Positions 7,048 to 63,051 are shown, counted from the whole stretch's first letter. The stretch is DNA of 63,051 nt, filler included, from Stramenopiles sp. TOSAG23-6 (GCA_900128565.1; 9 parts of 9 records of this genome joined end to end with filler, not necessarily neighbours in it), one strand, 5' to 3'. The notes: generated by a model from the letters alone, not told the origin. Made by a program: numbers and translations.

Positions 7048-8044
7048 AAGGGGAAAGCCTTATAAAAGTTCGTTTTCATTATGAATTTCATTTTTTTTTT
7101 TTTTTTTTGGTTTCGTACGAAATTTTGTACCTAACAAATGTCGAATTTAATTTTTTTACAATACATGTATGCTCGAAGTAAAAAAAAAATTCCAAATGTT
7201 GATGCTCGGCCAATTGAAATTTATGAAATTAGTCTTTTGGAAAATCAAAAGAATCAAGATTTTTGTGAGGTTAATAATAATACCGACTCTGTTAGTATTA
7301 GTATACGTGTCACTTGTAGCAGAGGAACCTATGTGAGAACTCTTGCAGAAGATATTGCAGAAAAATTGTATATTTTCATCAATTCAATTTTTATTTTTTT
7401 GTTTTGTACCAAATTTTTTACCTAACAAAATATTTCAAATTTGTGATATTTTTTCACAAGCACATGGGGTCTGTTGGTCATTTGTCACAACTAAGAAGAA
7501 TTAGTTCAGGTAAATTTAATTTGTCTCAATCTATTACATTATCAGAATTATCTCTATATTTGAATAAAACTGAGGATTGGGAAAAAACATTTGGTCTTCA
7601 ACGAAAAATTACAAATATAGAAAATAATGTACAAGATAAAAAAAAAAAAAAAAAAAAAAGATTCAAGCAAAGCTAAATTTTAGTGATAAGTGGAAAAATG
7701 ATAACTTTTCGACTCGTATTTTGATAAATCCGTACAAAATGCTGAGTCATTTGCCACACTTTGAAATAACAAATTTGTCTGATATACATCAGCTGGAAAC
7801 TAAAAAAGAGCCTAAAAAAGAGCCTTTACTCCCACCCATTCCTCCCTTATCGCTTGACTTAAATGTGGGGGACTTTTTTTTGGTATGGTTTAGGTCACAG
7901 ATATCTGGATGCCCAGAAGTGGTCATGATAGTTGAAGTTATTAAATCTTTACATGATTATAAAAACACGAAAAAGATAAAAATAGGACATTCTAAAAGTC
8001 CTGTAAAGGCTGTAGTGCGACTTGACGTTCCTCGATTTATTTGA
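7048..8044 (+). CDS. truB: TruB-family pseudouridine synthase, C-terminal part (introns 7068-7166, 7368-7465; probable homopolymer frameshift near 7640-7660)
   Basis: Spliced: GKAL*K|YAR...VTCSRGTYVRTLAEDIAEKL|GSVGHLSQLRRISSGKF. Confidence 0.85.
7368..7465 (+). other. Family intron, GT-AT
   Basis: TT|GTATAT...GCACAT|G restores EKLG; the AAG 5 nt upstream would frameshift. Confidence 0.8.
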
Positions 8045-8066
8045 TTTATTAGTAAATAAAATATTT

Positions 8067-9361
8067 TTATCTTTCAAGGCCTTGACTAACATATTTGATC
8101 ATTACATCGAGCTGCTTTTCTGGTACTTTTAATCCATCTGCAGTGGCAGTTTTTATTGCTGGCAAAATTTTACTTGCTCCTGTTTGACTTAAAGCTGTCG
8201 ACTCGTCATTTTTAATTATAAATTTTCTATATACGTTGAATAATTTATGTTCATCTTCATCCTCCCCTTGATCCTCCCGTATTGGACGTATCATTCCATT
8301 CTTTGAAAGTGAATCTTCTTCTAAAACATTCTTTATTGCTTTAGTAATAAAATCCTTTTCAATACCATTTGGTTCTGGCTTCCCTGTCTTTGAATCAATT
8401 TCGTATTTTGTATGACTTTTACTATCAAAATTAATGTATTTTGGAAAAATATTTCAAAAAAAAAAAACTAAAATTTGTTAGGTACAAAATGTCGTACGAA
8501 AAAAAAAACTCGAAATTGAAAAAAAAATAAAACATACATTCTTTCTTTGAAATGATTCTCCAAAATTCTCTTAAAACTTGCTCTTAATTGATCGTTATTT
8601 AGAATTAATTGAAGTTTATCTCTGTCCACTGGAAAGAGTTTTCCTGTGGTCTGTTTTATTGTTAAAAGTGCATTTTCAATCTTTTGCTGTAGCATTTTTT
8701 TTGTCAATTTATCAATTTTGGGTTGAATGTTTTGAGAAATTCCTTTTTCGAGCATATCACTAAAGAACTGAACAATTTGATAATTTTGTTTCTTTTTACG
8801 TATTTGCTCTTGGGCATTAGGGTTAGGGTCTGAACCATTCCTTGTTTCTGATTTTGCTCTGTTCCCTTCCACTGCTTCCTTGGTATATTTTTTTGCAAAT
8901 TCAACAATTTTTTCTATGGGAATAATTGGGAAGTCTTCACAATAACACGCTGGGTAAACACCTTGACATGGCATGCATTTATCGTATGTATCAAACTTTG
9001 TACTCATATTATCTCCTTTGATTCTAGTACTGCTACTACTTTCGATAGGCGCCACCTCTCCAACGTTTGCTTTTTTGTTGATTGACTTCACGTTTGTAAC
9101 ATTGACTTCTTCTTTGTTATTGTCGTGTGGTAGTGGCACTGTCATCTTTTTTAGTTTTTTTGGACGGCTAGGACGATCAGCAGTACTGTCTATGCTCGTT
9201 TCAGTTAGTATTGTAGAGAGCTTGTTTAAAAGGGGGCTGTTATTTTTAGAGACAAGACCGTGTGTTTTTGAAAATAATCGTACGGAACGAATCNTTTCAA
9301 ATCTTTCAAATATGAATAGAAACAAAAACATAGTGAATTTGAAGCAACGTCGATGAATCAT
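8067..9361 (-). CDS. Hypothetical protein, two exons (GT-AT intron 8434-8537)
   Basis: Removing the intron joins ORF 8468-9361 in frame to ORF 8067-8294. Confidence 0.7.
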
Positions 9362-9769
9362 TTTATGTTTAAATCCAATTTAATGTCGTTCAGTTTATTT
9401 TGCACCACTAGATAGAAAATTGGAGAAGCAGCAGGGCAACTCTTGTTCTCTGTTATTTAACCTGAAATTTCAGACGATGTATTCGAGGATCGATGGATCG
9501 AGAGAAATTTGAAATTTTTGAATTTTTGAAAACTTGGAAGCTAATTTTAATCTCCGAAAACACCGACAGTTTTTACGTAAGAATAAACGTATATTTATAT
9601 TTTTTACATGAGCCATCATTATTATTTATGGCCATCAATCAATCAAAAATTAGGCTAGCATTTTTTTTAACTTTGTAAAACTACTTAGGTACTGGTATAC
9701 CAAACACATAATCAAGCTAATATCTATATACAGAGAGGTAGAGGGAGTAAAATAACTTATTAAATTAGA

Positions 9770-14092: not shown

Positions 14093-14979
14093 AAAAATAT
14101 TTCAAAAAAAAAATCGTTAGGTACAAAATTTTTAAAAAAAAAAAAAAGAATTTGAAAAAAAATAAAACATACATATCACCACCTTCAGATGAAACGTCGC
14201 CAAATTTCATTAAAACATTATTTAAAGATGTTACAAGACAGATATTGTGAAAAAATATGTTACATTTGAAATTCGTTAGTAAAAAAAAAAAATCTTGGAA
14301 AATAAATAAATTTGAAAGTAATGATGAAAAAGTACAATCCTTTGATATACCATATGGATCATCAGGAGGAGGTGTAAATGTGATTGGAAAATAACATGCT
14401 GCAATGTCAAAAAGTTCCTCAACAGCACCTGAAGTTAATTTGCAATTTGTAGTCTGAGGTTCATTTCGATTCACTGAAATAGTTAAAACTGAAAAAATTA
14501 GGCGAAGACAAACAACAAGACACCGAGGATCTTTTTCACCTTCAATGGCTCGGCAAATACCGAATGCTAAAGTGTCTCCCATATCTGATAAAGACCATAT
14601 ATCGTTTGGTTCACTACAACTTTTCAAAATATTCTTTGAATCTCCACCAAACAAACTTAATAAAAAATCAAATACTTGCTGTCGTAATAACTGTTTTAAC
14701 TGAGGTACATGAACTTCATTAAATATTGTAGTCACAATTTCAATTACAGCAGTCCTTGGAAGGAGTACAACTCGATTTGGTAAAGACAATAACGACGATA
14801 AAGCCTCTAAAGATGGTCCCAAGGAGTCCAAGTATTTGCACAAGCGCTTCATACGTTACAGCACCGGATTTTAATTCTGATATTATCACAGTCAATGCAT
14901 CCTGTCGCTCAGTCTCTGTTTTAGGTGGTGTTGAAATGTAATCCTCTATCGCGGCATTGAATGTAACTTCAACGGCCAT
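14093..14979 (-). CDS. MMS19: MMS19 N-terminal region (3' partial; frame break near 14825; introns 14240-14335 and from 14172)
   Basis: IEGEKDPRCL..F and ELFDIAACYFPITFTPPPDDPYGI motifs. Confidence 0.88.
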
Positions 14980-18147: not shown

Positions 18148-21026
18148 ATGAGTAGTGTGAAAGCTTTAATGAGAGATGCTAAGAAGGCATTTATGAATGA
18201 AGAATGGGTTACTGCATTAGAGTTGAGTAGCCAAGCACTTACATTATTGGGTCCCATCGAAACATGCAGTAACTTTGTCGCCCTTTCTGTTGCAGGTACA
18301 TCAGCTCTAAAATCACGTCAGCAACTACCTCAAGCTGCTCTATACCTGTCTACCGCTGCAAAGTTACAACCAGACAAACTATCTATATGGCGACATATAA
18401 TTGAGCTTTATGAGATGGAGCCGTTAAAGAATGGAAACGAGGCCAAACTCTTAGCTGCTTTACAAGAAGCTGTTCACCTTACAGCATCTAAACCAAAATT
18501 CTTATTAGGATATACAAAACACATGACAAGAGTTATGGTACAAATGGGTGATAGAATAGGTGGAATACGTGTTCTTTCGGATTTTGTAGAGAAAGCTACA
18601 AATATTTCTCGTCCCTGTCTAAGTACAGAATATAGTATGAAAGAGCAGCTTGAAATGCCAGTTATTCCAGAAACAATAAATCTTAGAAAAGCGTCAAACT
18701 TACTTGGTGCGTGGCAATATTTAGTAAAGTTACTTGAGGAAGAGTTAAACTTGAAATTCAAAGATTGGAAATCTGTATGTACAGTTCCGAAAATTCCCCC
18801 TTCACATGATAGCCAAGATGAAACGAGTCCAAGTAATATATATACAACATTGATTTCAAACGCTTCAGAGAAAATCGCAAACGAAATTCCTAAATTAGAT
18901 GACCAAGTGAGAAATTTAGTCCTTCTTTTATTTCGAAGCTATCACATATCTCAAAATCTCATTTTTATGACACAAAATGGCAAAGAAAATAATAATGAAG
19001 AAAATAATGGTAACAAACAAGAATTTTGTCTTGAATATTTTTCGTGTGTTAAATCAAAACTAAAATTATTAGTAAAACTTTTATATTCTGTCAAAAGCAA
19101 ATCTGATAAATTGGAAATTCGTTCTACAATTCTGATGTATTGTACTAAATATATAGAAAATGACCAAAATGGAAATAAAACTTTGAAAGTTTTCTGTGCT
19201 CGTCTAAAATTGTTTTTATCAGCTGTTGAATTCATTCCGACAACGAGGACACGTATGTTTTCATGCTGAATTTCAAATTTATATTTTTTTTTTCATACGA
19301 AATTCCGTACCTAACGATTTTTTTACTAAAAAAGAACAAAAAAAACAAAAAAAATATTTTTTCACAATGCATATGAAATTGCTCAATATGTAACACGTGA
19401 ACAGAAATGTTTTGATATTGTTGGAGAGTCTATAATATGTGCATTCAAGTATTATAATAATAATTTGAATAATAATAATAATGAAAATAATAATTTTCTT
19501 TCAAATGAAATTCATGATATGATTATTTTGGGCTGTGATAAACATTTTCATAGTTGTGAAATAATGGATACAAAATCAGTTGGTTCTCAATTTGGAATTA
19601 ATTCTTTGGCATCAGTCTCATCATATCTATTAATAGTATGCAAACAAAAACTTGAATCTATTGACGATATGCAGCCTGCAATGGGATGGTGTAATAAGGA
19701 AAATATTTCTTTACAATCAAAATTGGCAGAAGAAGTTCTCAAAATATCTGGATTTGGTTTATATTACTTATCTTTACATTGTCATGTTTGTGGGATTGAT
19801 GAAGAACAAAATGAACTTTTTTTTTTATTAAAGCTACAAAATGCTCAAGCTACTTTGATTTTGGGTCGTGTAGAGGAAGCGAAACATGTATTTAATAGTG
19901 TATATGAGTCAATTCAAAAGAGACAACAAATATTAGAAAATAATACTTTTGTAAATGATATATTGTGTGCAGTGACACTATCTGGTATAGCATCAGTTTC
20001 TCTTGAAAGATTGATTATTCATCAATATAAACAGCATAAAAATAATGAAACAATTGACGCATATCAATATAATGAAACTATTGAAAGCTTTCAGAGAGCA
20101 ATTTCAAAATGGAAAGTAGTACAACAAAGTGAAAATATTCATATAAAAAAGGGAATATGTACAACATTAAGTAGAGATTGGTGTTTTGGAACTTTAGGAT
20201 GGATTAAAAGTGAATTTTGTGATTTATCTTTATGGAATGATATTAGGACTGAAACAGTTGACATATTCCATCAGGCAATTAATATTATGACTCAATCACA
20301 TCATGTAGTACATAAAATTAAGATTGCAAGATATCATTGTAGGCTTGGTATTGTACTATGGAGATCTGGTGGTGATTTTCGTTCAAAACGTAATCAATGT
20401 TATTCTTCTTTATTGCAAGCCGCAAAGTTAGGAGGTAATAGTCCAGTAGCTGCTGACGCGTGGGCATATTTAGGACTTTTTTATGAGCATATTTCTCAGC
20501 CACCTGACACGAAAAGAGCGTTATGTTGTTATCAGCGTTCCGTTTCAATGTATGTACGTTTACATGATTTATTTCAATTTCAATTTTTTTTTTTTTTTCG
20601 TAAAAATATTTCATATCTAACAAAAATATATGTATATATATATATTCCAATACTATATTCTTCTGCATTGAGAGGTGCAGCGGGACAAAATCTGTGCCGG
20701 TTATTACTTTGCCAATTGAAAAACAGAGAACAAGAGCAAACAATTTTATCTTTGTGTTCTTCTGCAATAGAAAGAAATCTTCAATGCTTGTGGGCTTGGG
20801 CATCGCAAGCACGAATACAAATGCGAAGAAAACATTGGAATGATGCGATTAAAAGTTTACAATATGCATTACGAATATCACATAGTTCAAGCATTGGACT
20901 ATGGTATAATTTAGGTTCAGTGTATCTTCAGTGTGGCCGATTTTCATCTGCTTTAAAATGTCTAGAGCGAGCATGTATGTTTTATTTTTTTTCAAATTCG
21001 AATTTTTTTTTCGTACGAAATTTTGT
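18148..21026 (+). CDS. SKI3: TPR protein SKI3/TTC37 (3' partial; family introns 19253-19372, 20554-20658, from 20975)
   Basis: N-terminus VKALMRDAKKAF..AAKLQPDKLSIW; LLQAAKL..AWAYLGLFYE..KRALCCYQRS. Confidence 0.75.
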
Positions 21027-21126: not shown

Positions 21127-22632
21127 AAAATTTTGTATGAAAAAAAAAATTAAATTGAAATTTTTTTTTTTTTTTTTTTTGTTAGGTACAAAATTTCGTA
21201 TGAAAAAAAAAAAACTTCAATATAAGATTGAATCGTAGTGACAAGATACATGAATATGATCTTTTAGCTGTTTTAACGACAATACACGGACGGTGTCTTT
21301 CTCCTCTTTTTGGTTCTTTTGGTTGTGCCTTGAGAAACTAGGGTTAGGGTTAGGAGTAGTGGATTTATTTTCAGTATTTTGTGTATTTCGTGTAGAATTC
21401 TTATTCAATTCAAGATTGGTACAAAGCTGTTTTAAACGACGATTTTCGGATAATAGTTTTTTTTGACTTTGTTGAAATTTTTCAGCTAAGATTTCCTTTT
21501 GTTCGGCCTTTTTTTTTGCGAAAATATTTCGGAAAAAAAAAAATGTTAGGTACAAAATTTCGTATGAAAAAAATATTGAAAATTCACAAAAAAAAAAAAA
21601 AAAAGTACGTGTATCTCGGCTTCTTTTTCAAGCATTTCAGCAGCTTGGAGAAGTTGTGATGTTTCTCTTTCTGCCCGAACAACCTCCGCATGAACATCAG
21701 CAACTCTTTGAGTATAATGCATTCGCATTTCTTCGATAACCCTACAAAAATCATGGAACAAACCTGTATGAACGGAGCGAAGTGTATTCCTGTACGAATG
21801 GATTATATATATTTTTTTTTGTACAATTTGTTAGGTACGAAATTTCGTACGAAAAAAAAAACAAAAAAAATTTCGTCAAACATTGAAAAAAAAATCTAAC
21901 CTACATGGCTGCGCCATAGTTTCCATTTGTATGTATTGTGTTTTTGCATAATTGTTCAAAACACAAATCATATAACTTATGCTTTGCAGAGAGTATACTA
22001 CTTTGTCGAAGAAAAGGATTTTTCATTTTACTTAACGTATTTGAGAGACTATCCATTGTTGATTGAACGTGGTTATCAAAAGTTTGAGTAATTTCACCCG
22101 TTGTTTCGTTATTATGTTGATTTGATCCTATTCCCGTTAATGATCCGTATAAAATTGCTACATCTTTTAGATCTTCTTGTGTCATAGAGATCTCTCTTTT
22201 TTGAATAGGATTAGGACGTTCGTCGGATCCATTTGTAATAAGAGACGTTCCTTCGTGAAGGTCGATATCATTGAGGACGTCGAGGAGTGGTAATTCACGA
22301 AATATTATCTCCTCCTCTTCAACGCTACCTACATGAATAGATAAAGTACGTAATCGAGGCAATGACTTTAGAGCATTAATGATTGTATGTACTTTGAAAA
22401 AGTTAGAAGAAATATCAAGACTTTCTAGCGCAGCTAGCCCAGAGAGGTCCGACGGCAACTCGGAAAGACGATTCCGAGATAAGTTTAGCTCACGAAGTTG
22501 TTCAAATTTTTCAAGCTGTTTAAGAATGTTTGGTAAATCTTGATTAGTTAATGCAGAGTACTCTAGACTTATAGATTGTGCCTTTGGTTTTGTTCTTAGT
22601 AACGAGGAAAGCTTTGCGTCTAAGTTCATCAT
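21127..22632 (-). CDS. Leucine-rich repeat plus coiled-coil protein (3' partial; introns 21790-21904, 21508-21608, from 21249)
   Basis: LRELNLSRNRLSELP, LESLDISSN; frames join via family introns ending in AG. Confidence 0.8.
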
Positions 22633-27200: not shown

Positions 27201-27897
27201 AACAAGAATTAAACAACTAATTCGTGCTAAAACGTACAACAAAGCAAGTTTTTATGACGTCATGTCATTATTCATTATTGAATATCGAGAAAAAATAATT
27301 TGTACGAAATTTTTGTACCTAACCTTTTTTTTTTAATTTTTTTTTTTTTTTCACAATGTAGTGGAGTTTCAAAACATGCTACAGTAAATGAAATACGCAA
27401 AGCCTATCGTAGAGCATGTACGTTGTCATCATCTTTTTTTTTTTTTTGTTTCTTGTACAATTTTTTTTTTCGTACAAAAAAATGTTAATTTTTGAAATTT
27501 TGAAATTTTTGACATTTTTGACATTTTTTACCTAACAAAAATAATATTTTTTGATATTATTCCACAATAAATCCATTATTTGGCATCCAGATAAAGCTTT
27601 ACTTAGAGCAAAACGTGAACAACAGTATCAGAATCAACTCAATATGCAAAAAAAAGTGTGTCAAAATTATGAAACAAATACAAAAAAAACAAATACAAAA
27701 AAAAATAATCAAAATACACAAAAAAATAATCAAAATACACGAAATAATGATGAAAATGCAAATAATGTACAACAAATTCCTTGTGATATTGAAACATCTT
27801 GTTATAGGGCAACATTACATTTCAAGCGTATAAATGAAGCAAAACAAATTTTATGTAATTCAAGCGAACGTTCGTTTTCATCATGAATTTCAAATTT

Positions 27898-27932
<35 letters not shown>

Positions 27933-28057
27933 GAAATTTTTTTCCTAACGATTTTTTTTTTTTTTTTTTTTTTAAACGAAATTTTTTACCCAACCATTTT
28001 TTTTTTTTTTTTTTCGGTAAAAAAAAATATATATATTTTTTCACAATACATGTGTCT
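24281..28057 (+). CDS. Coiled-coil / ankyrin / TPR / J-domain co-chaperone with 10 introns (24978-25079, 25159-25252, 25326-25512, 25657-25817, 25961-26062, 26571-26866, 27004-27116, 27264-27361, 27418-27572, 27870-28051); 3' partial
   Basis: Splicing gives a continuous frame: ELLI|HSNAD..DGRTILHCAV, DNDGNTALHIAI, ARLH|YNCGRAAF, YDVI|GVSKHATVNEIRKAYRRAS|IIWHPDK. Confidence 0.85.
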
Positions 28058-45677: not shown

Positions 45678-45708
<31 letters not shown>

Positions 45709-45723
45709 TTTCCTAAAAAACAT

Positions 45724-46654: not shown

Positions 46655-46755
46655 GTATGTGTTTTTTTTTTTTTTTGTATGAATTTTTTTTTCGTACGAA
46701 ATTTTGTACCTAACAAATTTTATTTTTTTTTTTGAAATATTTTTCCAAAATACAT

Positions 46756-49082
46756 GCAATGGATCTCAAAAGACATACTAAGAAGTTAGAAGAACAAATT
46801 CAATCTCTAGTTTCTGAAAATATTGCACTTGAAGCTCAAGTAAAAACGATTCCTTCATTGAAAACAAGACTATCTGAATATAAGCAAAGAGTCACTTCTC
46901 AAGAAGTTGAATTAAGCGAAGTAAGAGCAGAAGCTTTACGAAATAAGCATAAAGCAGCAAAACTCACAACAGTGTGTGATGCTTTACATAAAGATCGATT
47001 AGTTGCTGTAGATGTTCAAAAAGGTCTAGAAAATGCAGTTCAACAATTGGGAATTCAGGCAGATGCTTCACTTCTTTCTCATTCAAATGGAATAGGGGAA
47101 GGATGTACTGAATTAAACCCTGAGGTGTCTGAAAGGCTCCAAAGACTGACAAATGAAAATGAAAATTTGCGGACTCAATTAAGTGCAGAATCCGCAGAGC
47201 GAGCAGAAGAATTAGAAGGTCAATTAGATGACGCTTCGCGGTTGAAGAATATGTTTGAAACCAAATATCATACAGAGTATGAACGAGCTGAGAGTCTTCA
47301 AGAATCTTTGACAAAAACTACTTATATGTTAAAATGTGAGAAATCTGGACGACAGGCTGACAATGATCGACTTGAGAAGGAATTATTTGAAGAGAAAGAA
47401 AGCAGCAAAAATCAAATCGCCAAAATGTATGCAGAAAGAGATCTTTTAAATGAACGCAACTCGATGTTCCTTTCAGATTATCGTGATCATGTCATCAGGA
47501 CTCAGATAGATCATGATATAGAAAGTTCAGAAGCATCCGCTATTGCTTCTGCTGAATTAAAACGCTGTCGTGATGAAGCTAAACATGAAGCTACTACTGC
47601 ATTTGAAACTTTCAATGCTGCCAAAGCAAAATGGACACTAGCAACAAAAGAAAAGAATGAAAAATTACAAAATGCAAATTCTACATGCCAAAAATTATCT
47701 GACTCTTTAGCTGCTGAAAAGGAACAAAATGAGTTACGGAAAGCACAAATCAAACAACTGGAAGAAAAAAGTGTGAAACAGAATAAAAAGCTAGTGATGA
47801 AAATTAAGGATATTCAAGAGTTGACTCTTAAATCAGCTGCGAAACACCAACAAAATAGAAAATTACAACGTGAAAATGCTCGAGTTCGTAAGCAAATTGC
47901 AAACACCGTTGTATCAACAGGTCCATCCATGCGTGAAGTTGAACTCGATGCAGCATTAGAATTGAATGTTTTCATCATGAATTTTTTACCAATTTCATTT
48001 TTTTTATTTTGCATACAAAATTTTGTACCTAACGTTTTTTTTTACTAAACAAAATATATTTTTCCACAATACATAGAGACGAATAATCATAAAAAAACTT
48101 TACGTCGTTTGAAAAAACTTCAAATGCAACAACGTCTTGGTGGTGGTATCTCTGGTGGGGGGAGTCAAGCTGGATTAGGTGGAGTAACGTCTCAAGGTTA
48201 TGCAGATAGTATGAGAATGATGTATGTTTTATTTTTTTTTTTAACAAAAAAATCGAATTTATTTTTTTATAAAAATTTTGTACCTAACAAATTTTAATTT
48301 TTTTTTGAAATATTTTTCCAAAATACATGGAAGATGAAGTCGATCAACTAAGAGAAGAAAAGCAAACTTTGTTATTATTTAAAGCCCATGCTATGAAGGA
48401 AAGGCATGAAGCAGAGAGTACTGTTGCAAAGCTCGAACAAAAACTTCAAATATCAGACCAAAAGGTAGTCAGTTTGACTCTGAAAATGAAACGTGTCAAA
48501 AGTGTTCAATCATCTAGTTCTAGTGAAACTTGTAGTAGTACAGTAATATCTCTAAAAAATGATTTAATTGTACAAAAACAACAAATTCTTTCATTAAAAA
48601 CGGCACTGGAAGAAGCAAAACACGAAATGCGAAAGTGGCACTCGAAGGCAAAAGAATATCGAAATAGAATCAAAGTAATTGCAAATCGTTCAAAAGCAAA
48701 GAAGGCAGCTAAAGGAGGTAAAGCTAGTATCATTACCATAGAATCGAATGCAACGTTAAACTCTGAAGAACGTCTGGCTTCTGTTTCATCTACAAATAAT
48801 GTAAATAACAAAAATGAGATAGGAACGATGGAAGTTACAAACGATGAAGATAAAGATGGGTCATTACAAAATGAAAAAGAAACAAAAGCCAAAGATAAAG
48901 TGCCCCATAAAATGAATGGTAACGACATGAAAGTGGATGAAACCCTAACCCTAATGAAAGTGGATGAAGCATTAGAATCATCCAACATTCATTCAACAGA
49001 CTCTTTAAAAACTCAAACAAAGTCCACAGAAAAAGAAAATGTTTCTTCAGACACTAACATCATAACAGATAAGTCGATGAAA
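46756..49082 (+). CDS. HOOK-like long coiled-coil protein fragment; introns 47964-48074 (GA-AT), 48222-48328 (GT-AT); mirror copy on - strand at 42181-44507
   Basis: ELNPEVSERLQRLTNENENLR resembles the HOOK motif; exons join in frame. Confidence 0.65.
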
Positions 49083-49259
49083 NNNNNNNNNNNNNNNNNN
49101 NNNNNNNNNNNNNNNNNNNNNNNNNNTTAATTAATTAANNNNNNNNNNNNNNNNNNNNNNNNNNNNNNNNNNNNNNNNNNNNGAATTTATTTTTTCGTAC
49201 GAAATTTTGTACCTAACATTTTTTTTAGATTTTTTTTGAAATATTTTTCTAAAATACAT

Positions 49260-49635
49260 AATATTCAAGGTGCAAAACAACCTAGATTTATGCATATTGG
49301 TTCAAAAAAAACAATTCGTTATAAAAATCGTATTATTCTACCGAATTCAGGTTCTGGCAAAATTATTGGACAAATATGTTTTATTTTTTTTTTTAACAAA
49401 AAAATCGAATTTATTTTTTTCATACGAAATTTTGTACCTAACAAAAAATTTTAAAATTTTTTTGAAATATTTTTCCAAAATACAAGATGATAATGCTTTG
49501 TGTTTCAAATTGATCATTGAAGGAGTTTGTATGAATTTAGGTATATGGTGGTTTTCTGCAGCATTAAGAGGTGGACCTAAAATATTACCTGTGGTCAATG
49601 TTGATACAAAAGAAAGAAATCAGTCAAAACAATGA
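49260..49635 (+). CDS. Last two exons of an unidentified gene; AT-AA intron 49374-49485
   Basis: KIIGQ|DDNALCF joins ORFs 49236 and 49270 in frame. Confidence 0.6.
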
Positions 49636-50476: not shown

Positions 50477-51346
50477 ATGGTAGATTCAGCATCCGATATG
50501 TTTTCCAACATTCCTGTTGTAACACGCACTTTATTATGTGTTTCTCTACTTACAACGACATTATGTACTCTAGGTTTGGTACAGCCTATAGATCTATATC
50601 TGGATTGGAATCTCGTCTGGTATCGTTTTCAGTTATGGCGTTTGTTTACCTGCTTTATTTTCTTTGGGAAATTCAGTTTCCCATTTGTATTTCAAATGTA
50701 TATGCTGTATTCATATTCCAATAGATATGAGCAAGCTCCATATTCCACTACACCGGGGCAGATTCAGGGCAGAACTGCTGACTATGCGTACATGTTGTTA
50801 TGGGGAATGCTCATTAGTGCCATGGTTGCTTTTTTTCTTGGCGAACCTTTTCTTGGTCCAAGTTTAGTTTTTATGATTATGTATGTATGGAGTCGTAAAA
50901 ACGCGAATCAACCAGTTTCGTTGTTTGGTATTAATTTTATGGGTATGCACCTTCCGTGGGTGATGCTTGTGTTCTCTATACTCATTGGAAACTCTCCCGT
51001 AATGAATATTCTTGGTATGTATGTTTTATTTTTTTCAAATTTGAAGTTTTTTTTTTTTTTGGTTTTCATACGAAAATTTGTACCTAACAAATTTTTTTTA
51101 GATTTTTTTTGAAATATTTTTCCAAAATACATCATTGCTGGTCATGTTTATTTCTTTCTAATGACAGTGATTCCTGCAAAATATGGATATAATTTAATAA
51201 AGACACCAGAACTATTATGTAATTTCTTTGAAGCTGGTCAATATACATATGCAACGACACCATCAGGAAATATAGTTCGTGGTCAAAGACCTCAGACGAG
51301 ACATCAATGGGGAGGTGGTCGAGCTCTTGGAGGAGGTGCTGATTGA
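50477..51346 (+). CDS. DERL: Derlin (ERAD); GT-AT intron 51019-51132
   Basis: IPVVTR, QLWRLFT, YVWSRKN, LPWV, ILGI|IAGHVYFFL, SHP-like WGGGRALGG. Confidence 0.95.
51019..51132 (+). other. Family intron, GT-AT (prototype)
   Basis: GGT AT|GTATGTTTT..CATACGAAAATTTGTACCTAAC..GAAATATTTTTCCAAAATACAT|C ATT GCT GGT CAT. Confidence 0.88.
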
Positions 51347-52386: not shown

Positions 52387-54012
52387 ATGGTTTTGAACTA
52401 TTGTTTTAACTATGATGACGATGAGAATATTCATCGAGGCTGTGACCAGGAGAGTTCAACACCGGAAGGCGACAACTCCAATAATGTTAGAAATGTCTCA
52501 ACACATGAAAGACAAATTAGAAGAATTCCGCGACTGAAATGTAATATTATCAAGTGGTTAAAACTTCTCCTACCACTGATAATTTTGACACTTGCTGGTA
52601 TACTTGCTGTAAAACTTAGTGGTGATTCAATACTTGTCGTTGGAGAATATATGGAAGATAACAAACCTGTTTCATGTATGATATATGTTGTAGTATTTAC
52701 ATTAGCTGTGTCCTGCTGTTTATCTAGTTCAGTATTTACGATACTGGGCGGATATATCTTTGGATTTTTTCAAGGCTTTTTATTATCTCTTATCTCGATG
52801 GTATGTTCGATGTTTTTAGCCTTTTTTATCATTCGGGTATGTATTGGACGTCGTCAGGGAGGCTGCTGTAAAAAAACAAAAAAAACAAAAAAAACAAAAA
52901 AAACAAAAAAAACAAAAAACAACNATCATAGAGAATTAGTCTTATGTGATTCACCATCAAACGTTTTATGCGATTCGGCTTCAAAAGTATCTCCAGAGAA
53001 AATAAGTGAGTATATTTTTGATACTACTACATTACGTGGACGAATGAGAAATTGGTTAATCAAAGAATATTTTAGTTTGAAAGTTTTAGAAGATTTAATG
53101 AAAACACGACCGATTTATGCCATTGTCATGATTCGTTTAACATATATTCCAACATTTGCAAAAAATTATGGTGTAGCAATTCTAGATGCACCTGTTAAAG
53201 AGGCAATGTATGCAACAATCATATCTAGTATTTACTCATCAGTCATTTGGGCATATATGTAAGTTATCAATGGTATCAATGTAGAATTTAAATTTTTTTT
53301 TTTAGAATTTTTTTAGAATTTTTTTTTTTTTAGACTTTTAATTTTTAAATTTGTACCTAAACAATTTTACATTTTTTTTTTAAATATTGTCTCAAAACAC
53401 AGGGGAAGCGCTACGGAGTCAATGGTGGATACTCTCAACGAATCAAGTCCAAATGAAGATGACAGCATTGCTCAACAGATTCTTGAGTTTTCACCGATAC
53501 TTTGCTCTTGTTTTTTTACACTAGCAATGATTTTTGTATGTAACCCTAATCAATGTGCAATGTATTTTTTACAATGAAAATTTTGTATCCACTAACATTT
53601 TTTTTTTGTTTAAAAAATAAAAATATTTTTTCACAATATATATAGTGCGACGTAAAGTTAAGCAAGCCATCGATAGAGCTAGACTTCAGGTTCAAGAGGA
53701 GAGTCAAAGTCAAATTCCAAATAATATGTACGTTTTATTTTTTTTCAACAAAAAAATCGATTTTTTTTTTCGTACGAAATTTTGTACCTAACGATTTTTT
53801 TTTTGAATATTTTTCCAAATAATATTGCTCAAAGCCCTGTAAATATCACTGAAAATCTTCTTATTACTCCGATGCAGAATACTGCCATAAAATCCATCAA
53901 ACCACCGAGTCTAACAAAACCACCCAGTGAACAATCACATTGTGAAACTGTAGAGATACAACCAAAAAGTCAAAATCGTGTTGTAATTCCGCCACCGAAT
54001 TGTCCTGTGTAA
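52387..54012 (+). CDS. VTT/DedA (TMEM64/TVP38-like) membrane protein; introns 53259-53402 (GT-AG), 53536-53641, 53728-53825 (GT-AT)
   Basis: GGYIFGFFQG, IRLTYIPTFAKNYG, WAYM|GS. Confidence 0.85.
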
Positions 54013-54877: not shown

Positions 54878-56074
54878 TCAAATTTGTTTTTTTATCATTC
54901 GAATACTTCTTATAAATAACGTCTTTAAATTGGTTTGTTGCATAGTTATAAAATCTATAGAGTATCTAGAAGAATTGTTGTCGATATAAACAATATTAGG
55001 ACAATCAGGAGCATTTTTTTTATCTTTTTTATATTTTTTATCTTTTTCATCTTTTTCATCTTTTTTATATTTTTTATCTTTTTCATCTTTTTTATCTTTT
55101 TTATCTTTTTCATCTTTTTTATCTTTTTCATCTTTTATATATGAGATAAACTTTTGATCTATTTGAAACATCACTTTTGTATTATATTGACACCACCCCT
55201 TTTCACCCCGATTTATTTTGGAATAATATTTGTTTTTTGTTTTTTGTTTTTTGTTAGGTACAGAAATAAAAAAAACAATGAAAATATGTTTTTGTTAGGT
55301 ACAAAATTTCGTATGAAAAAAAATCAAAATTTGAATAGGGAAAACATACATCAAACTCCCAAATTCTCTTATACCATTTATCATTATCTATATTAGTTAC
55401 AACTGCATCATCCAATTGTAGATATTTTGACTTCTTTTGTATTGTTGATGGACTATTTGACTCTAACCCTAACCCTAATCCTACAGGTTTATACACTTTA
55501 TATACATATTTCGTACCTAATGAACCTTTAATGTTCTGATCCGTAAAAGTACTACTACTACTAGGGTTAGGGCTATACTGAAAATGAAATTTATTTTTTT
55601 TATCAAACTGTATCAAAATATTCATTTTGTTTATATCAATATTTGGTTTTGTATCAATGACACAATTTGTCAAAGAAACAAAAACATTTCTATCAACATG
55701 AATTTTGACACTTTCACCAAAATTTTCCACAATTTGACAATTTTCAATCATTGCACTTGAATGACCAGTTACTTCTATTGCAGCATTAGTTATAGATTTC
55801 GTGTTTGTAAATGTACTTGTTGTAGCTACTACTTTTGAATTAGCGTATATATACAAACAACGAACAACACAGGAAGAAAAAATATATTTCGTGATAATAT
55901 TCCATTTTTTTTAACTTTGTTAGGAATAACATAGTATGAAACGTAATAAGAAGGAAAAAAACAGTAACATTCATGATGAAAACTAAAATGAAAAAAAAAA
56001 AAATTGTAAAAAAATTGTAAAAAAAATTGTAAAAAATTGTAAAAAATTGTAAAAAATTGTAAAACATACAAAAG
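54878..56074 (-). CDS. Partial gene with beta-helix-like repeat and DKK/DEK low-complexity tail; family introns starting at 56069 and 55349
   Basis: AAIEVTGHSSAMIENCQIVEN; exact acceptors unresolved. Confidence 0.5.
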
Positions 56075-60155: not shown

Positions 60156-61578
60156 ATGGCCGAAGAAATAGAGAAACACGTACTTCGGAAATATGAAATT
60201 TGCCAGAAACTTGGAAAAGGTGTACGTTGCATTTTTTATACGAGTCTTCGTGTAGTCACATTCTACGTAATAGTTTTGTATGTTGGACACTAGAATTTAT
60301 ATTTTACAACTTCTAATTATACCATTATTTATCATATCATTTAGTAACAGGCATATGGCATAGTTTGGAAAGGTATCGAAAAAAAATCACGAACTACAGT
60401 TGCTTTAAAGAAGTGCTTTGATGCCTTTCGTAACGCCACTGATGCACAGAGGACATATCGAGAGGTCATGTACTTACAAGAGTTGGGACATCACGATAAT
60501 ATAATCAAGTTACTTAATATAATCAAATCTGAAAATGATAGAGACATATACCTTGTATTTAACTACATGGAAACTGATTTACATGCTGTAGTCAGAGCTT
60601 CGATTCTTGAAGACATCCACAAGCAATACATCATCTACCAATTATTAAAAGCATTAAAATATATGCATTCTGCAGAACTTTTACATCGAGATATTAAACC
60701 CTCAAATCTTCTATTGAACTCAGACTGTCATATACGAGTATGTGATTTTGGATTATGCCGATCGGTGAAAGAAATACAATCAGGACCTAATCCTGTACTG
60801 ACTGATTACGTTGCTACGCGTTGGTACCGGGCACCTGAAATTCTTCTTGGTTCAACTCATTATACCAAAGGTGTTGATATGTGGTCTTTAGGTTGTATTC
60901 TAGGTGAAATGCTTCTAGGAAGACCGGTTTCTCCAGGGACATCCACCATGAATCAATTAGATCGAATCATGTATGTTTTCATTTTATTTTTTTTTGAAAC
61001 TTTTTTTTCATACGAAATTTTGTACCTAACAAAATTTTTTAGATTTTTTTGAAATATTTTCTGAAATTTCATGGAAGTCACCGGACGGCCCACAAAGGAA
61101 GACATTTCTGCTATACGTTCACCATTTGCTGCTACAATGCTTGAAAATTTGCCTCCAACAAAACCCAGGCCATTAGCCGAAATTTTTTCAACTGCCTCTG
61201 CCGAGGCTCTCGATATGATGAGGTGCTGTCTAAGGTTCAATCCTGAAAAAAGAATATCATGTACGTTTTCATTTAATTTTTTTTTGAAACTTTTTTTTTT
61301 TTTTTTTTCATACGAAATTTTGTACCTAACAATTTTTTTTAGATTTTTTTGAAATATTTTCACAAAATACATGTGAGGAAGCATTACGACATCCATATGT
61401 TGCTAAATTTCACAACACGGAAGATGAACCAGTTACCGATGCACCAGTAACACTAAAAGTCGATGATAACAAAAAGTACTCCGCAGCCAGTTACAGAGAA
61501 AGACTCTATAAAGAAGTGAAGCGACGTAAACAAGAAGCTCGAAGAAGACGTCATCGACGAGAAAATGCGAGCCAGTGA
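60156..61578 (+). CDS. MAPK15: MAP kinase ERK7/MAPK15; canonical intron 60222-60350, GT-AT introns 60971-61072 and 61261-61372
   Basis: [61 protein letters not shown]. Confidence 0.95.
60971..61072 (+). other. Family intron, GT-AT
   Basis: ATC AT|GTATGT...TTTCAT|G GAA GTC; the TAG at 61040-61042 would give a stop. Confidence 0.88.
61261..61372 (+). other. Family intron, GT-AT
   Basis: TCA T|GTACGT...AAATACAT|GT GAG GAA GCA. Confidence 0.85.
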
Positions 61579-61825
61579 ACTAACAGCTACATTTTTTTGT
61601 TAGGTACAAAATTTACTACGAAACAAAAATAGTATATAGAATTATTCAACGTTTTATTCATAAAAAAGCAAATAATCAAAAATTTAAAATGATGAAAATA
61701 TTTAAATTTTATTATTTTGTTTTTTTCATGCACAATAATAAAATTTTTCAAGAGATGTTGAATAAAATCAAATTAATTAATGAGGTGATGTTTCAGCACC
61801 TTTTTGAACGTCTACTTAAATTAAT

Positions 61826-63051
61826 TTAATGAGGTGATGTTTCAGCACCTTTTTGAACGTCTACGGGTTGGCCAGTCGCACTTTCAGCTGTTTCCGTAAA
61901 TGGTGAATATTTAGCCAATTGTCTTACTGGTAACTTCATTGCATCTCTTCGAAAAGGATCACCCAATTCACGAGTTACCATTACCTCAATAATTGTTGTT
62001 TTTCCGTGTTTCATTTGATTTTCTTCGGCTTGTTGTAAAGCAGGTCCGACCTCTTCAATTGTATTTACAAGAATACCCTCAGCGCCCATTGATTTTGCAA
62101 TTTCTGCAAAGGATCCAACACGTGGTAAGTTAGTTCCAACATAACGATCACCAAACCATAATACTTGATTTTTTTTCTCAGCACCCCATTGACCGTTGTT
62201 AAAGACAACATGGATTATAAAAAATATTTCAAAAAAAAATCTAAAAAAATTTGTTAGGTACAAATTTTCAAAAAAAAAAAAAAAACATAAATTCAAAATT
62301 GAAATGAAAACGTACCTGTGTCATTGGAATATCTTCACGTACACAGGTGAGAACTTCACATAATTGCATACCCCATGCACCATCACCAGAATACCCCATG
62401 TATTATCAAAATATATTTTTTTTTTTTACAAAAATGAATTGTGTTAGATATGAAATGTTCATACAAAAAAATATTTTGAAAAAAACATTTTGGAGGGGAA
62501 AAAAAAACTTACATTGCAAAACGATCAGGATTCGCAATTTTTGCACCCATTGCTGCTGGAAAAGAATATCCGCAATTACCAAACGTCATTGCTCCAAGAA
62601 AGGATTTAGGTTCTTCAAATCTTAAATATGAGTTGGATACGGAACAAATATTTCCAATATCAGTCGCAACAATTGCACGTTTTGGCATAGCTTTTTCCAA
62701 TTCGCGCAAAACTGTTCGAGGTTTTAAAAACCCATCAGGGGCGTTTCCTTGTGACATTGACGTGAGTTCAGCTTCCCATTCTTCTTTAAATGCTGTCGCT
62801 GTCGCTAAACGTTCCGATTTCGTGTTTGTTGAGACAACATCAAGAGACAAAAGACGTTCAAAAATATCTTTTGTAGCTGGTTTTACATCTCCATTCACTC
62901 CTACATGAACATCCATGAATTTTGGAAAAATATTTCAAAATTTTCTAAAAAAAAAATTGTTAGGTACAAAATTTACTATAAAAAAAAAATCGATTTTTCT
63001 GTAAAAAAAAAAATAAAACATACATGGCAGGATTGTTTCCAACTCGTTTTG
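61826..63051 (-). CDS. xsc: Sulfoacetaldehyde acetyltransferase (ThDP-dependent), C-terminal part; GT-AT introns 62210-62315, 62398-62512, 62915-63023
   Basis: TDIGNICSVSNSYLRFE, FGNCGY, GDGAWGM, QWGAEKKNQ, TRELGDPFRRDAMK. Confidence 0.88.

What the first reader, a model, noticed from the sequence alone, without database searches (positions are those of the whole stretch)
7068..63023. Dominant family of non-canonical GT-AT introns: the 3' splice site is YAT, not YAG
Seen: all contigs except the first carry one repeated element inside genes, in sense orientation: GTAYGTTTT..T-run..TTTCGTACGAAATTTTGTACCTAAC..T-run..GAAATATTTTTCCAAAATACAT. Removing it from GT through AT restores conserved motifs exactly in MAPK15 (DRIM|EVTG, RISC|EEAL), Derlin (LGI|IAGH), DPP4 (IIH|GLLDENVHF), SMC3 (VE|VAD), Xsc (three introns), TFIIS, TruB and ankyrin/TPR/J domains. 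Of 40 complete introns I delimited, 31 end AT, 6 AG and 3 AA/CT/TT. Established: spliceosomal introns almost invariably end AG (or AC in AT-AC introns); GTATGT/GTAAGT donors and CTAAC branch sites are U2-type; mass non-canonical introns are known in a few lineages (Fritillaria, Amoebophrya, euglenids). Inference: this organism's U2 spliceosome routinely uses an AU acceptor. I do not know of a described genome dominated by GT-AT introns.
Basis: partly seen in the sequence, partly recalled or inferred. Interest (0 to 1): 0.95.

Follow-up and report, generated by a model that had tools for sequence, protein, structure and literature searches.

The report
Mobile introns that end in AT
Genes of an uncultured marine protist are interrupted by dozens of copies of one small mobile intron that must be cut out from GT to AT rather than the near-universal GT to AG, a rule that ordinary gene prediction misses.

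Summary
The window is nine ~6.9-kb contigs of an AT-rich stramenopile. A database protein named as a MAST-3 assembly CDS is identical to the window's MAPK15 exons.

Outside a duplicated half of one palindromic contig I delimited 34 complete copies of one ~90-180-nt intron family:
- 5' ends: 31 of 34 start GT.
- Branch motif: 31 of 34 carry CTAAY.
- 3' ends: 28 AT, 4 AG, 1 TT, 1 AA. The 3' consensus is Y-A-T.

Removing each copy at boundaries set mostly by family alignment restores the reading frame in 29 of 29 testable cases. It also gives ungapped matches to homologues in MAPK15, Derlin and Xsc. All 41 copies that interrupt coding sequence lie in sense orientation. Two relatives' MAPK15 genes have these sites empty.

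The best reading is an introner-like mobile family removed by a U2-type spliceosome at a YAU acceptor.

- It is a property of this family. One unrelated intron here ends AG.
- Exon-end AT makes boundaries ambiguous by 1-2 nt in 20 of 34 copies.
- Three introns were counted twice.

No RNA evidence could be obtained, so splicing itself remains inferred. I found no paper describing this.

The parts
7068..7166 (+). Family intron in the TruB gene. GTTCGT...ACAT, 99 nt. The upstream exon is only 20 nt, at the contig start.
   Evidence: matrix score 16.2; frame not testable.
7368..7465 (+). Family intron in the TruB gene. GTATAT...ACAT, 98 nt. Exon ends TT.
   Evidence: in frame, AEKL|GSVGHLSQLRR. 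TruB_N ends at 149/149 and TruB_C_2 resumes at position 12. Acceptor set by eye.
8434..8537 (-). Family intron. GTATGT...ACAT, 104 nt.
   Evidence: in frame, 251 and 121 open codons on the two sides.
19253..19372 (+). Family intron. GTATGT...GCAT, 120 nt. Exon ends AC and no flanking repeat exists, so the boundaries are unambiguous for this length.
   Evidence: in frame, 382 and 550 open codons.
21508..21608 (-). Family copy ending AG. GTACTT...AAAG, 101 nt.
   Evidence: Acceptor chosen by reading frame.
21798..21904 (-). Family intron after a 15-codon first exon. GTAGGT...CCAT, 107 nt.
   Evidence: in frame by hand from the ATG.
24978..25079 (+). Family intron in the ankyrin-repeat gene. GTACGT...GCAT, 102 nt. 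Exon ends TT.
   Evidence: in frame.
25159..25252 (+). Family intron in the ankyrin-repeat gene. GTATGT...ACAT, 94 nt.
   Evidence: in frame.
25961..26062 (+). Family copy ending AG. GTACGT...ACAG, 102 nt. G stands at the position of the family's final T.
   Evidence: in frame.
27004..27116 (+). Family intron. GTATGT...ACAT, 113 nt. It carries a CCCTAACCCTA insert and an 8-nt flanking direct repeat.
27264..27361 (+). Family-like copy ending AG, in the DnaJ gene. GTCATT...GTAG, 98 nt.
   Evidence: the next exon starts at DnaJ profile position 7.
27418..27572 (+). Family intron. GTACGT...AAAT, 155 nt.
   Evidence: in frame.
27870..28051 (+). Family intron at a contig end. GTTCGT...ACAT, 182 nt.
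   Evidence: frame not testable.
32139..32268 (+). Family intron in the TFIIS gene. GTAAAT...ACAT, 130 nt. Exon ends CT.
   Evidence: in frame. TFIIS_M lies before it and the zinc ribbon after.
34355..34472 (-). Family copy ending TT, in the EF-hand gene. GTATGT...ACTT, 118 nt.
   Evidence: in frame.
34579..34693 (-). Family copy with A at +1. ATATGT...ACAT, 115 nt.
   Evidence: in frame at the family-aligned boundary.
35364..35459 (+). Family intron in the peptidase S9 (DPP4-like) gene. GTACGC...TTAT, 96 nt.
   Evidence: the exon after it starts at Peptidase_S9 profile position 152.
38323..38413 (+). Family intron in the ion-channel / cNMP-binding gene. GTATGT...ACAT, 91 nt.
   Evidence: 372 and 459 open codons.
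39692..39782 (+). Family intron in the same gene. 91 nt, 93% identical to the copy at 38323.
40377..40467 (-). Family-like intron in the SMC gene. GTGCGT...ATAT, 91 nt. Exon ends AG.
   Evidence: acceptor set by eye. SMC_N reaches profile position 202/220 at the exon end.
46655..46755 (+). Family intron 3 nt upstream of the likely ATG of the HOOK-like gene. 101 nt. Its mirror copy lies at 44508-44608 (-).
47964..48074 (+). Family copy with a GAATGT donor, ending ACAT. 111 nt.
   Evidence: in frame only at the family-aligned boundary.
48222..48328 (+). Family intron. GTATGT...ACAT, 107 nt.
49374..49485 (+). Family copy ATATGT...ACAA, 112 nt. The exon also ends ACAA.
   Evidence: in frame.
51019..51132 (+). 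Family intron in the Derlin gene. GTATGT...ACAT, 114 nt.
   Evidence: a profile of 18 homologues scores removal of exactly 114 nt best, with an ungapped join.
53259..53402 (+). Family-like copy ending AG. GTAAGT...ACAG, 144 nt.
53536..53641 (+). Family intron. GTATGT...ATAT, 106 nt. An AG four bases further on gives a frame that fails at the next intron.
53728..53825 (+). Family intron. GTACGT...ATAT, 98 nt. It has a 13-nt flanking direct repeat.
55211..55349 (-). Family intron. GTATGT...AAAT, 139 nt.
60971..61072 (+). Family intron in MAPK15. GTATGT...TCAT, 102 nt.
   Evidence: P0121 and P0122 read LDRIM|EVTG / LDRIM|EITG.
61261..61372 (+). Family intron in MAPK15. GTACGT...ACAT, 112 nt. An in-frame internal AG is not used.
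62210..62315 (-). Family intron in Xsc. GTACGT...CCAT, 106 nt. Exon ends AG.
   Evidence: ungapped IPMTQ|VVFNNGQWG.
62398..62512 (-). Family-like intron in Xsc. GTAAGT...ACAT, 115 nt.
62915..63023 (-). Family intron in Xsc. GTATGT...TCAT, 109 nt. The upstream exon is 28 nt, at the contig end.
56175..56291 (-). Complete copy, GTATGT...ACAT, 117 nt. Its downstream exon lies beyond the contig end.
13941..13992 (-). 3' part of a copy cut by the contig end. Ends ACAT.
14093..14172 (-). 5' part of a copy (GTATGT) cut by the contig end.
20975..21026 (+). 5' part of a copy (GTATGT) cut by the contig end.
21127..21249 (-). 5' part of a copy (GTATCT) running into the contig end.
28158..28264 (-). 5' part of a copy (GTATGT) cut by the contig end.
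35177..35272 (+). 3' part of a copy at the contig start, in the peptidase S9 gene. Ends ATAT.
49183..49259 (+). 3' part of a copy at the contig start. Ends ACAT.
60222..60350 (+). Unrelated canonical intron 1 of MAPK15. GTACGT...AACAG, 129 nt. Included for contrast.
   Evidence: P0122 reads QKLGKG|AYGIVW. No family hit here.

Best explanation
These are copies of one introner-like mobile element, 91-182 nt long (median about 106). It has spread, in sense orientation, into many unrelated genes of an AT-rich MAST-3-like marine stramenopile.

Proposed mechanism:
1. Each copy brings its own U2-type signals: a GUAYGU donor, a U-run, and a UACCUAAC branch site about 42 nt from its end.
2. It is removed from pre-mRNA by the major spliceosome.
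3. Exon ligation takes place after a Y-A-U acceptor instead of Y-A-G.
4. AGs that lie 10-35 nt downstream of the branch A are passed over.

The terminal AU probably stems from insertion at an AT. That would be either a 2-bp target duplication or insertion of a TG...CA-ended element between A and T. Precise restoration of the mRNA then requires cutting after that AT.

Status of each step:
- Shown: the family, its boundaries to within 0-2 nt, the frame restoration, the strand bias, and the empty sites in relatives.
- Inferred: removal at the RNA level, use of the spliceosome, the exact phosphodiester cut, and the mode of transposition.
For: 1. Exact removal is required. It is in frame in 29 of 29 testable copies, at boundaries set mostly by family alignment.
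2. Homologues agree.
   - Xsc gives an ungapped profile alignment across three joins.
   - Derlin scores best with exactly 114 nt removed.
   - MAPK15 joins match proteins that are 99%, 91% and 84% identical over exon 1.
3. Strand. All 41 of 41 hits that interrupt coding sequence are in sense orientation (and gene identities). This is expected if strand-specific RNA signals are needed, and not for excision from DNA.
4. The signals are U2-type. 31 of 34 copies start GT, 31 of 34 have CTAAY, and U-runs are present.
5. The acceptor differs from the canonical YAG only in its last base. Position -3 is Y in 31 of 34, -2 is A in 33 of 34, and -1 is T in 29 of 34. This holds although the copies have diverged to a median 67% pairwise identity, so the AT looks constrained.
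6. Four copies have G at that very position, as expected if AG and AT are interchangeable acceptors.
7. Mobility.
   - Copies in different contigs are up to 89-93% identical.
   - The MAPK15 ORF P0123, on a 14,087-nt contig, starts in the tail of the shared canonical intron 1 and runs straight through both family sites. P0121 does the same.
8. Precedent. Yeast spliceosomes lacking Prp18 use CAU and UAU as their most efficient non-G acceptors, helped by poly(U) and by contact with the first intron base (PMC10711555, passages read).
Against: - No transcript of this organism was seen. No near-identical cDNA-derived protein was found for Xsc or Derlin. P0121 is more likely a genomic ORF than a cDNA.
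- In 20 of 34 copies the exon also ends AT, so the cut could lie 1-2 nt upstream.
- Only 19253-19372 has no flanking repeat on either side. Its length rests on frame and family alignment, not on a homologue.
- Nine of 34 copies hold an AG 10-35 nt after the branch A. A standard spliceosome would be expected to use it.
- Three acceptors were set by eye or by frame.
- No snRNA or second-step factor of the organism could be inspected: Rfam finds nothing in the window and no genome is held.
- No transposase partner was found, and flanking repeats range from 0 to 13 nt, unlike a fixed target duplication.
Confidence: 0.62

Rival explanations
1. The introns are removed from RNA by the unknown, probably non-spliceosomal route used for euglenid and diplonemid nonconventional or 'intermediate' introns. 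In that route the paired intron ends and short flanking direct repeats define the cut.
For: - Short direct repeats flank the unit in 19 of 34 copies (2 nt or more).
- The ends AUGUAU/AUACAU are self-complementary and pair in 4 of 8 minimum-energy folds.
- Such introns are described as flanked by short direct repeats with paired ends, possibly of MITE origin (PMC12621601, sections 3 and 11 passages).
- 'Intermediate' introns mix conventional and nonconventional features (PMC3935182, abstract start only).
Against: - Folds are no more stable than shuffles: z from -2.2 to +0.3, and only 1 of 8 below -2.
- Terminal pairing shows no covariation: 2.85 pairs within a copy against 2.93 between copies.
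- The donor, branch site and Y-A at -3/-2 are conserved as in spliceosomal introns. Nonconventional introns lack conserved borders.
- No such introns are reported for stramenopiles in what I read.
Confidence: 0.12
2. The introns are spliceosomal, but the true cut sites are shifted. Where the exon ends AT they would be AU...AC (or UG...CA) introns, so the 'AT acceptor' is an artefact of placing the boundary.
For: - 20 of 34 exons end AT.
- In 11 of 34 copies a shift of 2 nt gives AT...AC with the same mRNA.
- AT-AC is an established terminal pair (established knowledge; PMC12621601 section 3).
Against: - The shift is impossible in 14 of 34 copies whose exon does not end AT. Eight of these are frame-tested copies ending AT: 7368, 19253, 24978, 32139, 40467, 47964, 53536, 62315.
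- A shifted cut would ignore the aligned GTAYGT donor.
- No copy has the U12-type ATATCC or GTATCC donor.
- The branch is 32-103 nt from the end, too far for U12-type introns.
Confidence: 0.08
3. The spliceosome mainly uses ordinary AGs in or near these elements. GU...AU joins would then be a minor or inefficient product. Many host transcripts would be aberrant and degraded, the elements being mildly harmful recent insertions.
For: - Nine of 34 copies carry an AG 10-35 nt after the branch A.
- Four copies have changed the final T to G.
- A database gene model for this MAPK15 gene (P0241) could be built with GT-AG only.
Against: - Only 2 of the 9 internal AGs would keep an open frame.
- For one of those two (61261-61372) the 10 extra residues are absent from P0121, P0122 and P0123.
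- 25 of 34 copies have no AG between branch and end.
- The final AT is kept in 28 of 34 diverged copies, in essential genes such as SMC, Derlin and TFIIS.
Confidence: 0.08
4. The elements are cut out of DNA, like ciliate internal eliminated sequences. The window would then show a germline-like form.
For: Excision would be precise and short direct repeats lie at the ends.
Against: - The orientation is strictly sense: 41 of 41.
- The signals are spliceosomal.
- The repeats are mostly AT, with none at all in 10 of 34 copies, rather than obligatory TA.
- Programmed DNA elimination is not known in stramenopiles (my own knowledge).
- The ORFs without these introns come from other species, 84-99% identical in protein and with a different intron 1 sequence.
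Confidence: 0.03
5. The elements are not removed at all. The genes would be dead, or the pattern an artefact of single-cell amplification and assembly.
For: Contig 7 is a chimeric palindrome, and single Ns occur in the assembly.
Against: - 29 of 29 testable copies preserve the frame on exact removal, and the flanking exons are intact and conserved.
- Random artefacts would be neither sense-only nor carry splice signals.
- 28 independent copies share the final T.
Confidence: 0.02

Closest known systems
Introners: transposon-derived intron families, for example in Micromonas and Aureococcus (Huff et al. 2016, recalled) and in the surveys of PMC12130899
   Same: - Many similar copies sit in unrelated genes, in sense orientation.
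- Each copy carries its own splice signals.
- Short flanking repeats are present.
- Presence or absence differs between close relatives.
   Different: - Described introner families are GT-AG or other accepted pairs.
- The survey I read accepts only AG and AC acceptors. It discards families with unfamiliar splice sites unless transcripts support them (PMC12130899, methods passage).
- Here the acceptor is AT and no autonomous partner is known.
Non-canonical introner-like introns of Amoebophrya (PMC7789003) and of the tunicate Fritillaria (Henriet 2019; PMC13326754)
   Same: [quoted passage not shown] Removal by a U2-type spliceosome is proposed for Fritillaria.
   Different: - I saw only the search listing and the abstract starts, plus a passage citing Henriet 2019.
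- There both ends are highly diverse.
- Here the donor and branch stay canonical, and only the last base of the acceptor changes, to one fixed letter.
Nonconventional and 'intermediate' introns of euglenids and hemistasiid diplonemids (PMC12621601, PMC6221363, PMC3935182)
   Same: Short direct repeats lie at the borders, the ends are complementary, and a MITE origin has been suggested.
   Different: - Those lack conserved borders and a U1-complementary donor, and they rely on strong end pairing.
- Here the borders are conserved and pairing is weak and does not covary.
- The lineage is different: a stramenopile.
CAU and UAU acceptors used by yeast spliceosomes lacking Prp18 (PMC10711555)
   Same: The acceptor has the same sequence class (H-A-U), lies after poly(U), and comes with a GUAUGU donor. 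Docking against the first intron base is the proposed mechanism.
   Different: In yeast this is a low-level error of a mutant. Here it would be the normal, constrained acceptor of most introns seen.
U12-type AT-AC introns
   Same: The termini are not GT-AG. An AT...AC reading is formally possible in 11 of 34 copies.
   Different: There is no ATATCC or GTATCC donor. The branch is 32-103 nt from the end, not 10-20 nt. The reading fails in 23 of 34 copies.

Membership tests
U2-type spliceosomal intron | 5' splice site GT with a GTRNGT-like hexamer | tested here: met
   31 of 34 copies start GT: GTATGT 14, GTACGT 6, other GT 11. Three variants start ATATGT (2) or GAATGT (1).
U2-type spliceosomal intron | Branch site of CTRAY type upstream of a pyrimidine tract | tested here: met
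   CTAAY is present in 31 of 34 copies, mostly as GTACCTAAC, followed by T-runs. The branch A lies a median of 42 nt from the end.
U2-type spliceosomal intron | 3' splice site YAG | tested here: not met
   Only 4 of 34 copies end AG, and 28 of 34 end AT. Y at -3 (31 of 34) and A at -2 (33 of 34) are kept.
U2-type spliceosomal intron | Removal from pre-mRNA through a lariat by U1/U2/U4/U5/U6 | not testable with these tools
   No reads could be laid. No snRNA is in the window and no genome is held.
U12-type (AT-AC) intron | Donor [AG]TATCCTT and branch TCCTTAAC 10-20 nt from the 3' end | tested here: not met
   0 of 34 donors have ATCC at +3 to +6. Branch-to-end distance is 32-103 nt. The consensus motifs are recalled, not taken from a call.
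Introner (transposon-derived intron family) | Many similar copies serving as introns of unrelated genes | tested here: met
   There are 48 profile hits, 34 of them complete copies, in genes for TruB, TFIIS, SMC, Derlin, MAPK15, Xsc, peptidase S9, DnaJ and others. Best pairs are 89-93% identical across contigs.
Introner (transposon-derived intron family) | Insertion polymorphism or recent gain | tested here: met
   Both MAPK15 family sites are uninterrupted in P0123 (84% identical, on a 14,087-nt contig) and in P0121 (99% over exon 1). The canonical intron 1 is shared. This rests on one gene only.
Introner (transposon-derived intron family) | Transposon hallmarks: terminal inverted repeats, fixed target duplication, autonomous partner | tested here: inconclusive
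   The ends (AT)GTAT...ATAC(AT) are inverted-repeat-like. The exon-end AT matches the intron-end AT in 19 copies, and the AA-ending copy has an AA exon end. Repeat length nevertheless varies from 0 to 13 nt. No transposase was seen in the ORFs scanned (not all ORFs were scanned).
Euglenid-type nonconventional intron | No conserved borders; stable pairing of the intron ends | tested here: not met
   The borders are conserved. Fold z-scores range from -2.2 to +0.3. There is no covariation.
Ciliate-type internal eliminated sequence | TA-bounded, removed from DNA, with no strand preference relative to the gene | tested here: not met
   41 of 41 copies are in sense orientation, and the borders are GT...AT. 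DNA-level removal itself is not testable here.

The most novel reading that the evidence does not exclude
The major spliceosome of this MAST-3-like lineage natively ligates exons after Y-A-U for most of its introns and passes over nearer AGs. GU-AU would then be a third natural terminal class beside GU-AG and AU-AC. It would have been created and spread by an AT-targeting introner and maintained by a re-tuned second-step proofreading system (Prp18, Slu7, Prp8, Prp22, or the U2AF small subunit).
Probability: 0.6. Interest if true: 0.9.

Novelty: new variant of a known kind. Interest (0 to 1): 0.8.

Why it matters
1. Splicing mechanism. The AG at intron ends is among the most constant signals in eukaryotic biology. 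A natural lineage that uses AU for most introns would give a ready-made system for asking how the second catalytic step chooses and proofreads the acceptor. So far that question is approached mainly with yeast mutants (PMC10711555).

2. Intron origins. It would show that an invading element need not bring a canonical acceptor to become an intron. That widens the range of transposons that can create introns. Surveys that accept only AG and AC acceptors would miss such families (PMC12130899, methods passage).

3. Practical consequence. A database gene model for this very MAPK15 gene (P0241) uses only GT-AG and carries three local errors:
   - 11 intron-derived residues are kept.
   - 8 conserved residues are lost and one added.
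   - 10 further intron-derived residues are kept.
   Proteomes and gene counts predicted for this ecologically common, uncultured group may therefore be corrupted throughout.

Tried and rejected
RNA evidence
- The look-up of sequencing runs listed 11 RNA runs holding only 0.05-0.09 of the sampled words of contig 9. They were never laid, so they are no evidence of expression or habitat.
- It was then capped. No read-level result exists.

Tools not available
- No whole genome is held for the window.

Diplonemid lead
- Papers on noncanonical introns in marine diplonemids looked promising.
- The top protein hits are stramenopiles and the identical database entry is named as a MAST-3 assembly CDS, so I dropped the lead.
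- Gawryluk et al. 2016 is not held. I know it only through citing passages.

Searches for transcript-derived proteins and related DNA
- For Xsc (longer proteins only) the best hit was 61% identical.
- For Derlin the best full-length hit was 62%.
- The metagenome scan with P0121 returned 80 loci. The best was 87% identical, all were GC-rich where checked (51-55%), and none holds the family. The contig of P0121 itself was not among them.
- A 19-nt core motif found one chance hit in a Bacteroidales MAG and nothing in viral contigs.

Analyses that did not discriminate
- Rfam and tRNA scans of the window found nothing.
- A loose frame test (any 20-codon open frame) did not separate the models and was replaced.
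- A crude orientation test by ORF length called 5 of 44 hits 'antisense'. Two of these are sense by gene identity and three are core-only fragments in non-coding DNA.
- My first ORF-based acceptor guesses were wrong for 24978 and 53536 and were corrected.

Candidate canonical introns I withdrew
- At 10657 the frame needs GT...TA or TA...AG.
- At 30176 the intron is not verified.

Closed material
Those of the MAST single-cell genome papers may hold remarks on splice sites that I could not see.

Full report
WHAT THE WINDOW IS

The 63,051 bases are nine contigs of 6,877-6,947 nt joined by N44-TTAATTAATTAA-N44 linkers. GC content is 24-42% in 2-kb windows.

The MAPK15 exon 1 has its best named hits in stramenopiles: raphidophytes, oomycetes, a pelagophyte and Bolidomonas. 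A EukProt entry named 'GSMAST32.ASY1.ANO1.1981.1 assembled CDS' (P0241) is 100% identical to the window over the exons it uses. From this I take only the lineage, a MAST-3-like marine stramenopile.

Contig 7 equals its own reverse complement at 6660 of 6660 bases. This is an amplification or assembly chimera. No whole genome is held.

THE ELEMENT

A CCTAAC scan and then profile searches find one repeated unit only in contigs 2-9. Its layout is:

(AT)|GTAYGTTTT - T-run - YRTACGAAATTTTGTACCTAAC - T-run (often with an AG) - GAAATATTTTTCCAAAATACAT|

I catalogued 34 complete copies outside the duplicate half of contig 7, plus eight more cut by or abutting contig ends.
- Lengths are 91-182 nt, median 106.5.
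- Median pairwise identity is 0.67, against 0.58 for shuffled controls. The best pairs reach 0.89-0.93 between different contigs and genes.

BOUNDARIES AND THE FRAME TEST

Donors were placed on the aligned GT of the family. Acceptors came from three sources:
- the end of the profile alignment (21 copies, which also trained a matrix);
- that position weight matrix (10 copies);
- my own placement (3 copies): 7465 and 40377 by eye on the family alignment, 21508 by frame.

With the longest open frame on each side, excision is in frame in 29 of 34 copies. The remaining five cannot be tested:
- 7068, 27870 and 63023 have a flank of 28 nt or less at a contig end.
- 21904 follows a 15-codon first exon and is in frame from its ATG.
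- 46655 lies 3 nt before the likely start codon.

So 29 of 29 testable copies fit, where one in three is expected by chance.

Two copies fit only at the family-aligned boundary and not at the nearest GT: 47964 (GAATGT) and 34693 (ATATGT). This shows that homology rather than my choice of GT sets the frame.

End composition:
- Last two bases: AT 28, AG 4, TT 1, AA 1.
- Position -3: C 26, T 5, A 3.
- Position -2: A in 33 of 34.

The acceptor is therefore Y-A-T, one letter away from Y-A-G.

HOMOLOGY AT THE JOINS

MAPK15. P0121 (99% identical over exon 1), P0122 (91%) and P0123 (84%) read LDRIM|EVTG, LDRIM|EITG and LDKIM|EITG. At the next join they read RIS|CEEAL, RIT|AEEAL and RIT|AEEAL. These require removal of exactly 60971-61072 and 61261-61372.

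Xsc. A profile of 89 full-length homologues scores removal of exactly 115 and 106 nt best. The product spliced by the GT-AT rule aligns to profile positions 310-571 without a gap at any of the three joins. One of them is the conserved IPMTQ|VVFNNGQWG, where the exon ends AG.

Derlin. A profile of 18 homologues scores removal of exactly 114 nt best. The join NILG|IIAGHVYFF is ungapped against three relatives.

Pfam. TruB_N ends at 149/149 ten residues before the join, and TruB_C_2 resumes at position 12.

HOW SURE ARE THE EXACT TERMINI?

The upstream exon ends AT in 20 of 34 copies; about 0.11 is expected from base composition. In those copies the same mRNA results from boundaries moved 1-2 nt upstream.

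An AT...AC reading is possible in 11 of 34 copies. It is impossible in the 14 whose exon does not end AT. Eight of those 14 are frame-tested and end AT: 7368, 19253, 24978, 32139, 40467, 47964, 53536 and 62315.

Only 19253-19372 has no repeat on either side. The common rule that fits all copies is GT (family position 1) to AT.

WHY RNA SPLICING IS THE BEST READING

1. All 41 hits that interrupt coding sequence are in sense orientation. Three further core-only fragments lie in non-coding DNA.
2. The donor, the branch site and the U-runs are U2-type. U12-type signals are absent.
3. The final AT is kept in copies that have otherwise diverged. Four copies have G at that position, as if AT and AG were interchangeable acceptors.
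4. Yeast lacking Prp18 uses CAU and UAU as its best non-G acceptors, aided by poly(U) and by contact with the first intron base (PMC10711555, passages).

One open point remains. Nine of 34 copies contain an AG 10-35 nt after the branch A that is evidently not the productive acceptor. Only two of the nine would keep an open frame. For one of those two (61261-61372), the 10 extra residues are absent from P0121, P0122 and P0123.

I could not obtain transcript evidence. Removal from RNA and the exact cut therefore remain inferred.

MOBILITY

P0123 lies on a 14,087-nt contig. Its ORF begins in the tail of the shared, canonical intron 1 and runs through both family sites. P0121 does the same, on contigs of at most 2,826 nt, so it is more likely genomic than cDNA. 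The two family introns of MAPK15 are thus absent in close relatives while the GT-AG intron 1 (60222-60350) is shared.

On the mode of insertion:
- The ends (AT)GTAT...ATAC(AT) are inverted-repeat-like.
- The one copy ending AA also follows an exon ending AA. That points to a duplicated or shared target rather than an inverted repeat.
- Flanking repeats vary from 0 to 13 nt.
- The layout equally fits an element with TG...CA ends inserted between A and T.
- No transposase was seen among the ORFs I scanned.

RIVALS

- End-pairing (euglenid-type) removal. Folds are not more stable than shuffles (z from -2.2 to +0.3) and terminal pairs do not covary.
- Removal from DNA. This is contradicted by the strand bias.
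- Dead genes or an artefact. This is contradicted by the frame test and by conserved exons.

WHAT IS KNOWN

Introners and large-scale non-canonical introns are known:
- Amoebophrya, Fritillaria and other tunicates (listing and abstract starts only);
- diplonemids and euglenids (sections and passages).

A recent introner survey accepts only AG and AC acceptors and drops families with unfamiliar sites that lack transcript support (PMC12130899).

I found no paper on genome-scale GT-AT introns. Four MAST genome papers carry no remark on splice sites in their main texts:
- PMC5778133;
- PMC12614181;
- PMC8163842;
- bioRxiv 10.64898/2026.04.17.719054.

Supplements were closed.

The database model P0241 uses GT-AG only, and by comparison with P0121-P0124 it is wrong at all three introns of this gene.

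VERDICT

It is a new variant of a known kind (introners and non-canonical introns) with an unusually clean and testable rule.

Noticed in passing
25 sites, e.g. 26108-26616, 31858-31982, 27012-27022, 8818-8828: The telomere-like motif CCCTAACCCTA occurs 25 times against 0 expected. It often lies inside open reading frames, where it reads N-P-N-P with always the same codons. It occurs once inside a family intron, and once as an inverted pair around an N (12537-12571).
   Followed up: partly
42181-49082: Contig 7 is a perfect palindrome, 6660 of 6660 bases equal to its reverse complement, with internal N runs. This is probably a chimera of single-cell amplification or assembly. Features in it are seen twice.
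   Followed up: yes
2758-6945 (-): Contig 1 carries one open frame of at least 1,396 codons, with no family intron. It has TSP1-spondin, EGF and Sushi domains and a somewhat higher GC (34-41%). Whether it belongs to the same organism is open.
   Followed up: partly
60156-61575 (+): The database gene model P0241 for this MAPK15 gene is built with GT-AG introns only. Against close homologues it keeps [11 protein letters not shown], loses EVTGRPTK (and adds Y), and keeps [10 protein letters not shown].
   Followed up: yes
10657-10758 (+): An unrelated intron in a kinase-like gene cannot be both GT and AG. The frames require GT...TA or TA...AG, one base off. This could be another non-AG acceptor or an assembly error; the contig has single Ns.
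   Followed up: partly
e.g. 51070-51100, 61010-61040: Within the element, AAATTTTGT and ACAAAATTT form a 9-10-bp stem around the branch motif in 2 of 8 folds. The conserved YRTACGAAA box is complementary to the element's own donor GTAYG. I found no strict covariation by eye.
   Followed up: partly
53715-53825 (+): The last 13 nt of the upstream exon are repeated as the last 13 nt of the intron (TTCCAAATAATAT). This is much longer than the usual 2-nt repeat.
   Followed up: no
20554-20640 (+): An intron-like stretch (GTACGT, T18, CTAAC) lies inside a frame that stays open across it. It was not hit by the family profile. Whether it is spliced, and where it ends, is open.
   Followed up: no
36013-36939 (-): The ribosomal protein L5 (uL18) gene appears intron-free in its coding region, unlike most genes of the window.
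   Followed up: no
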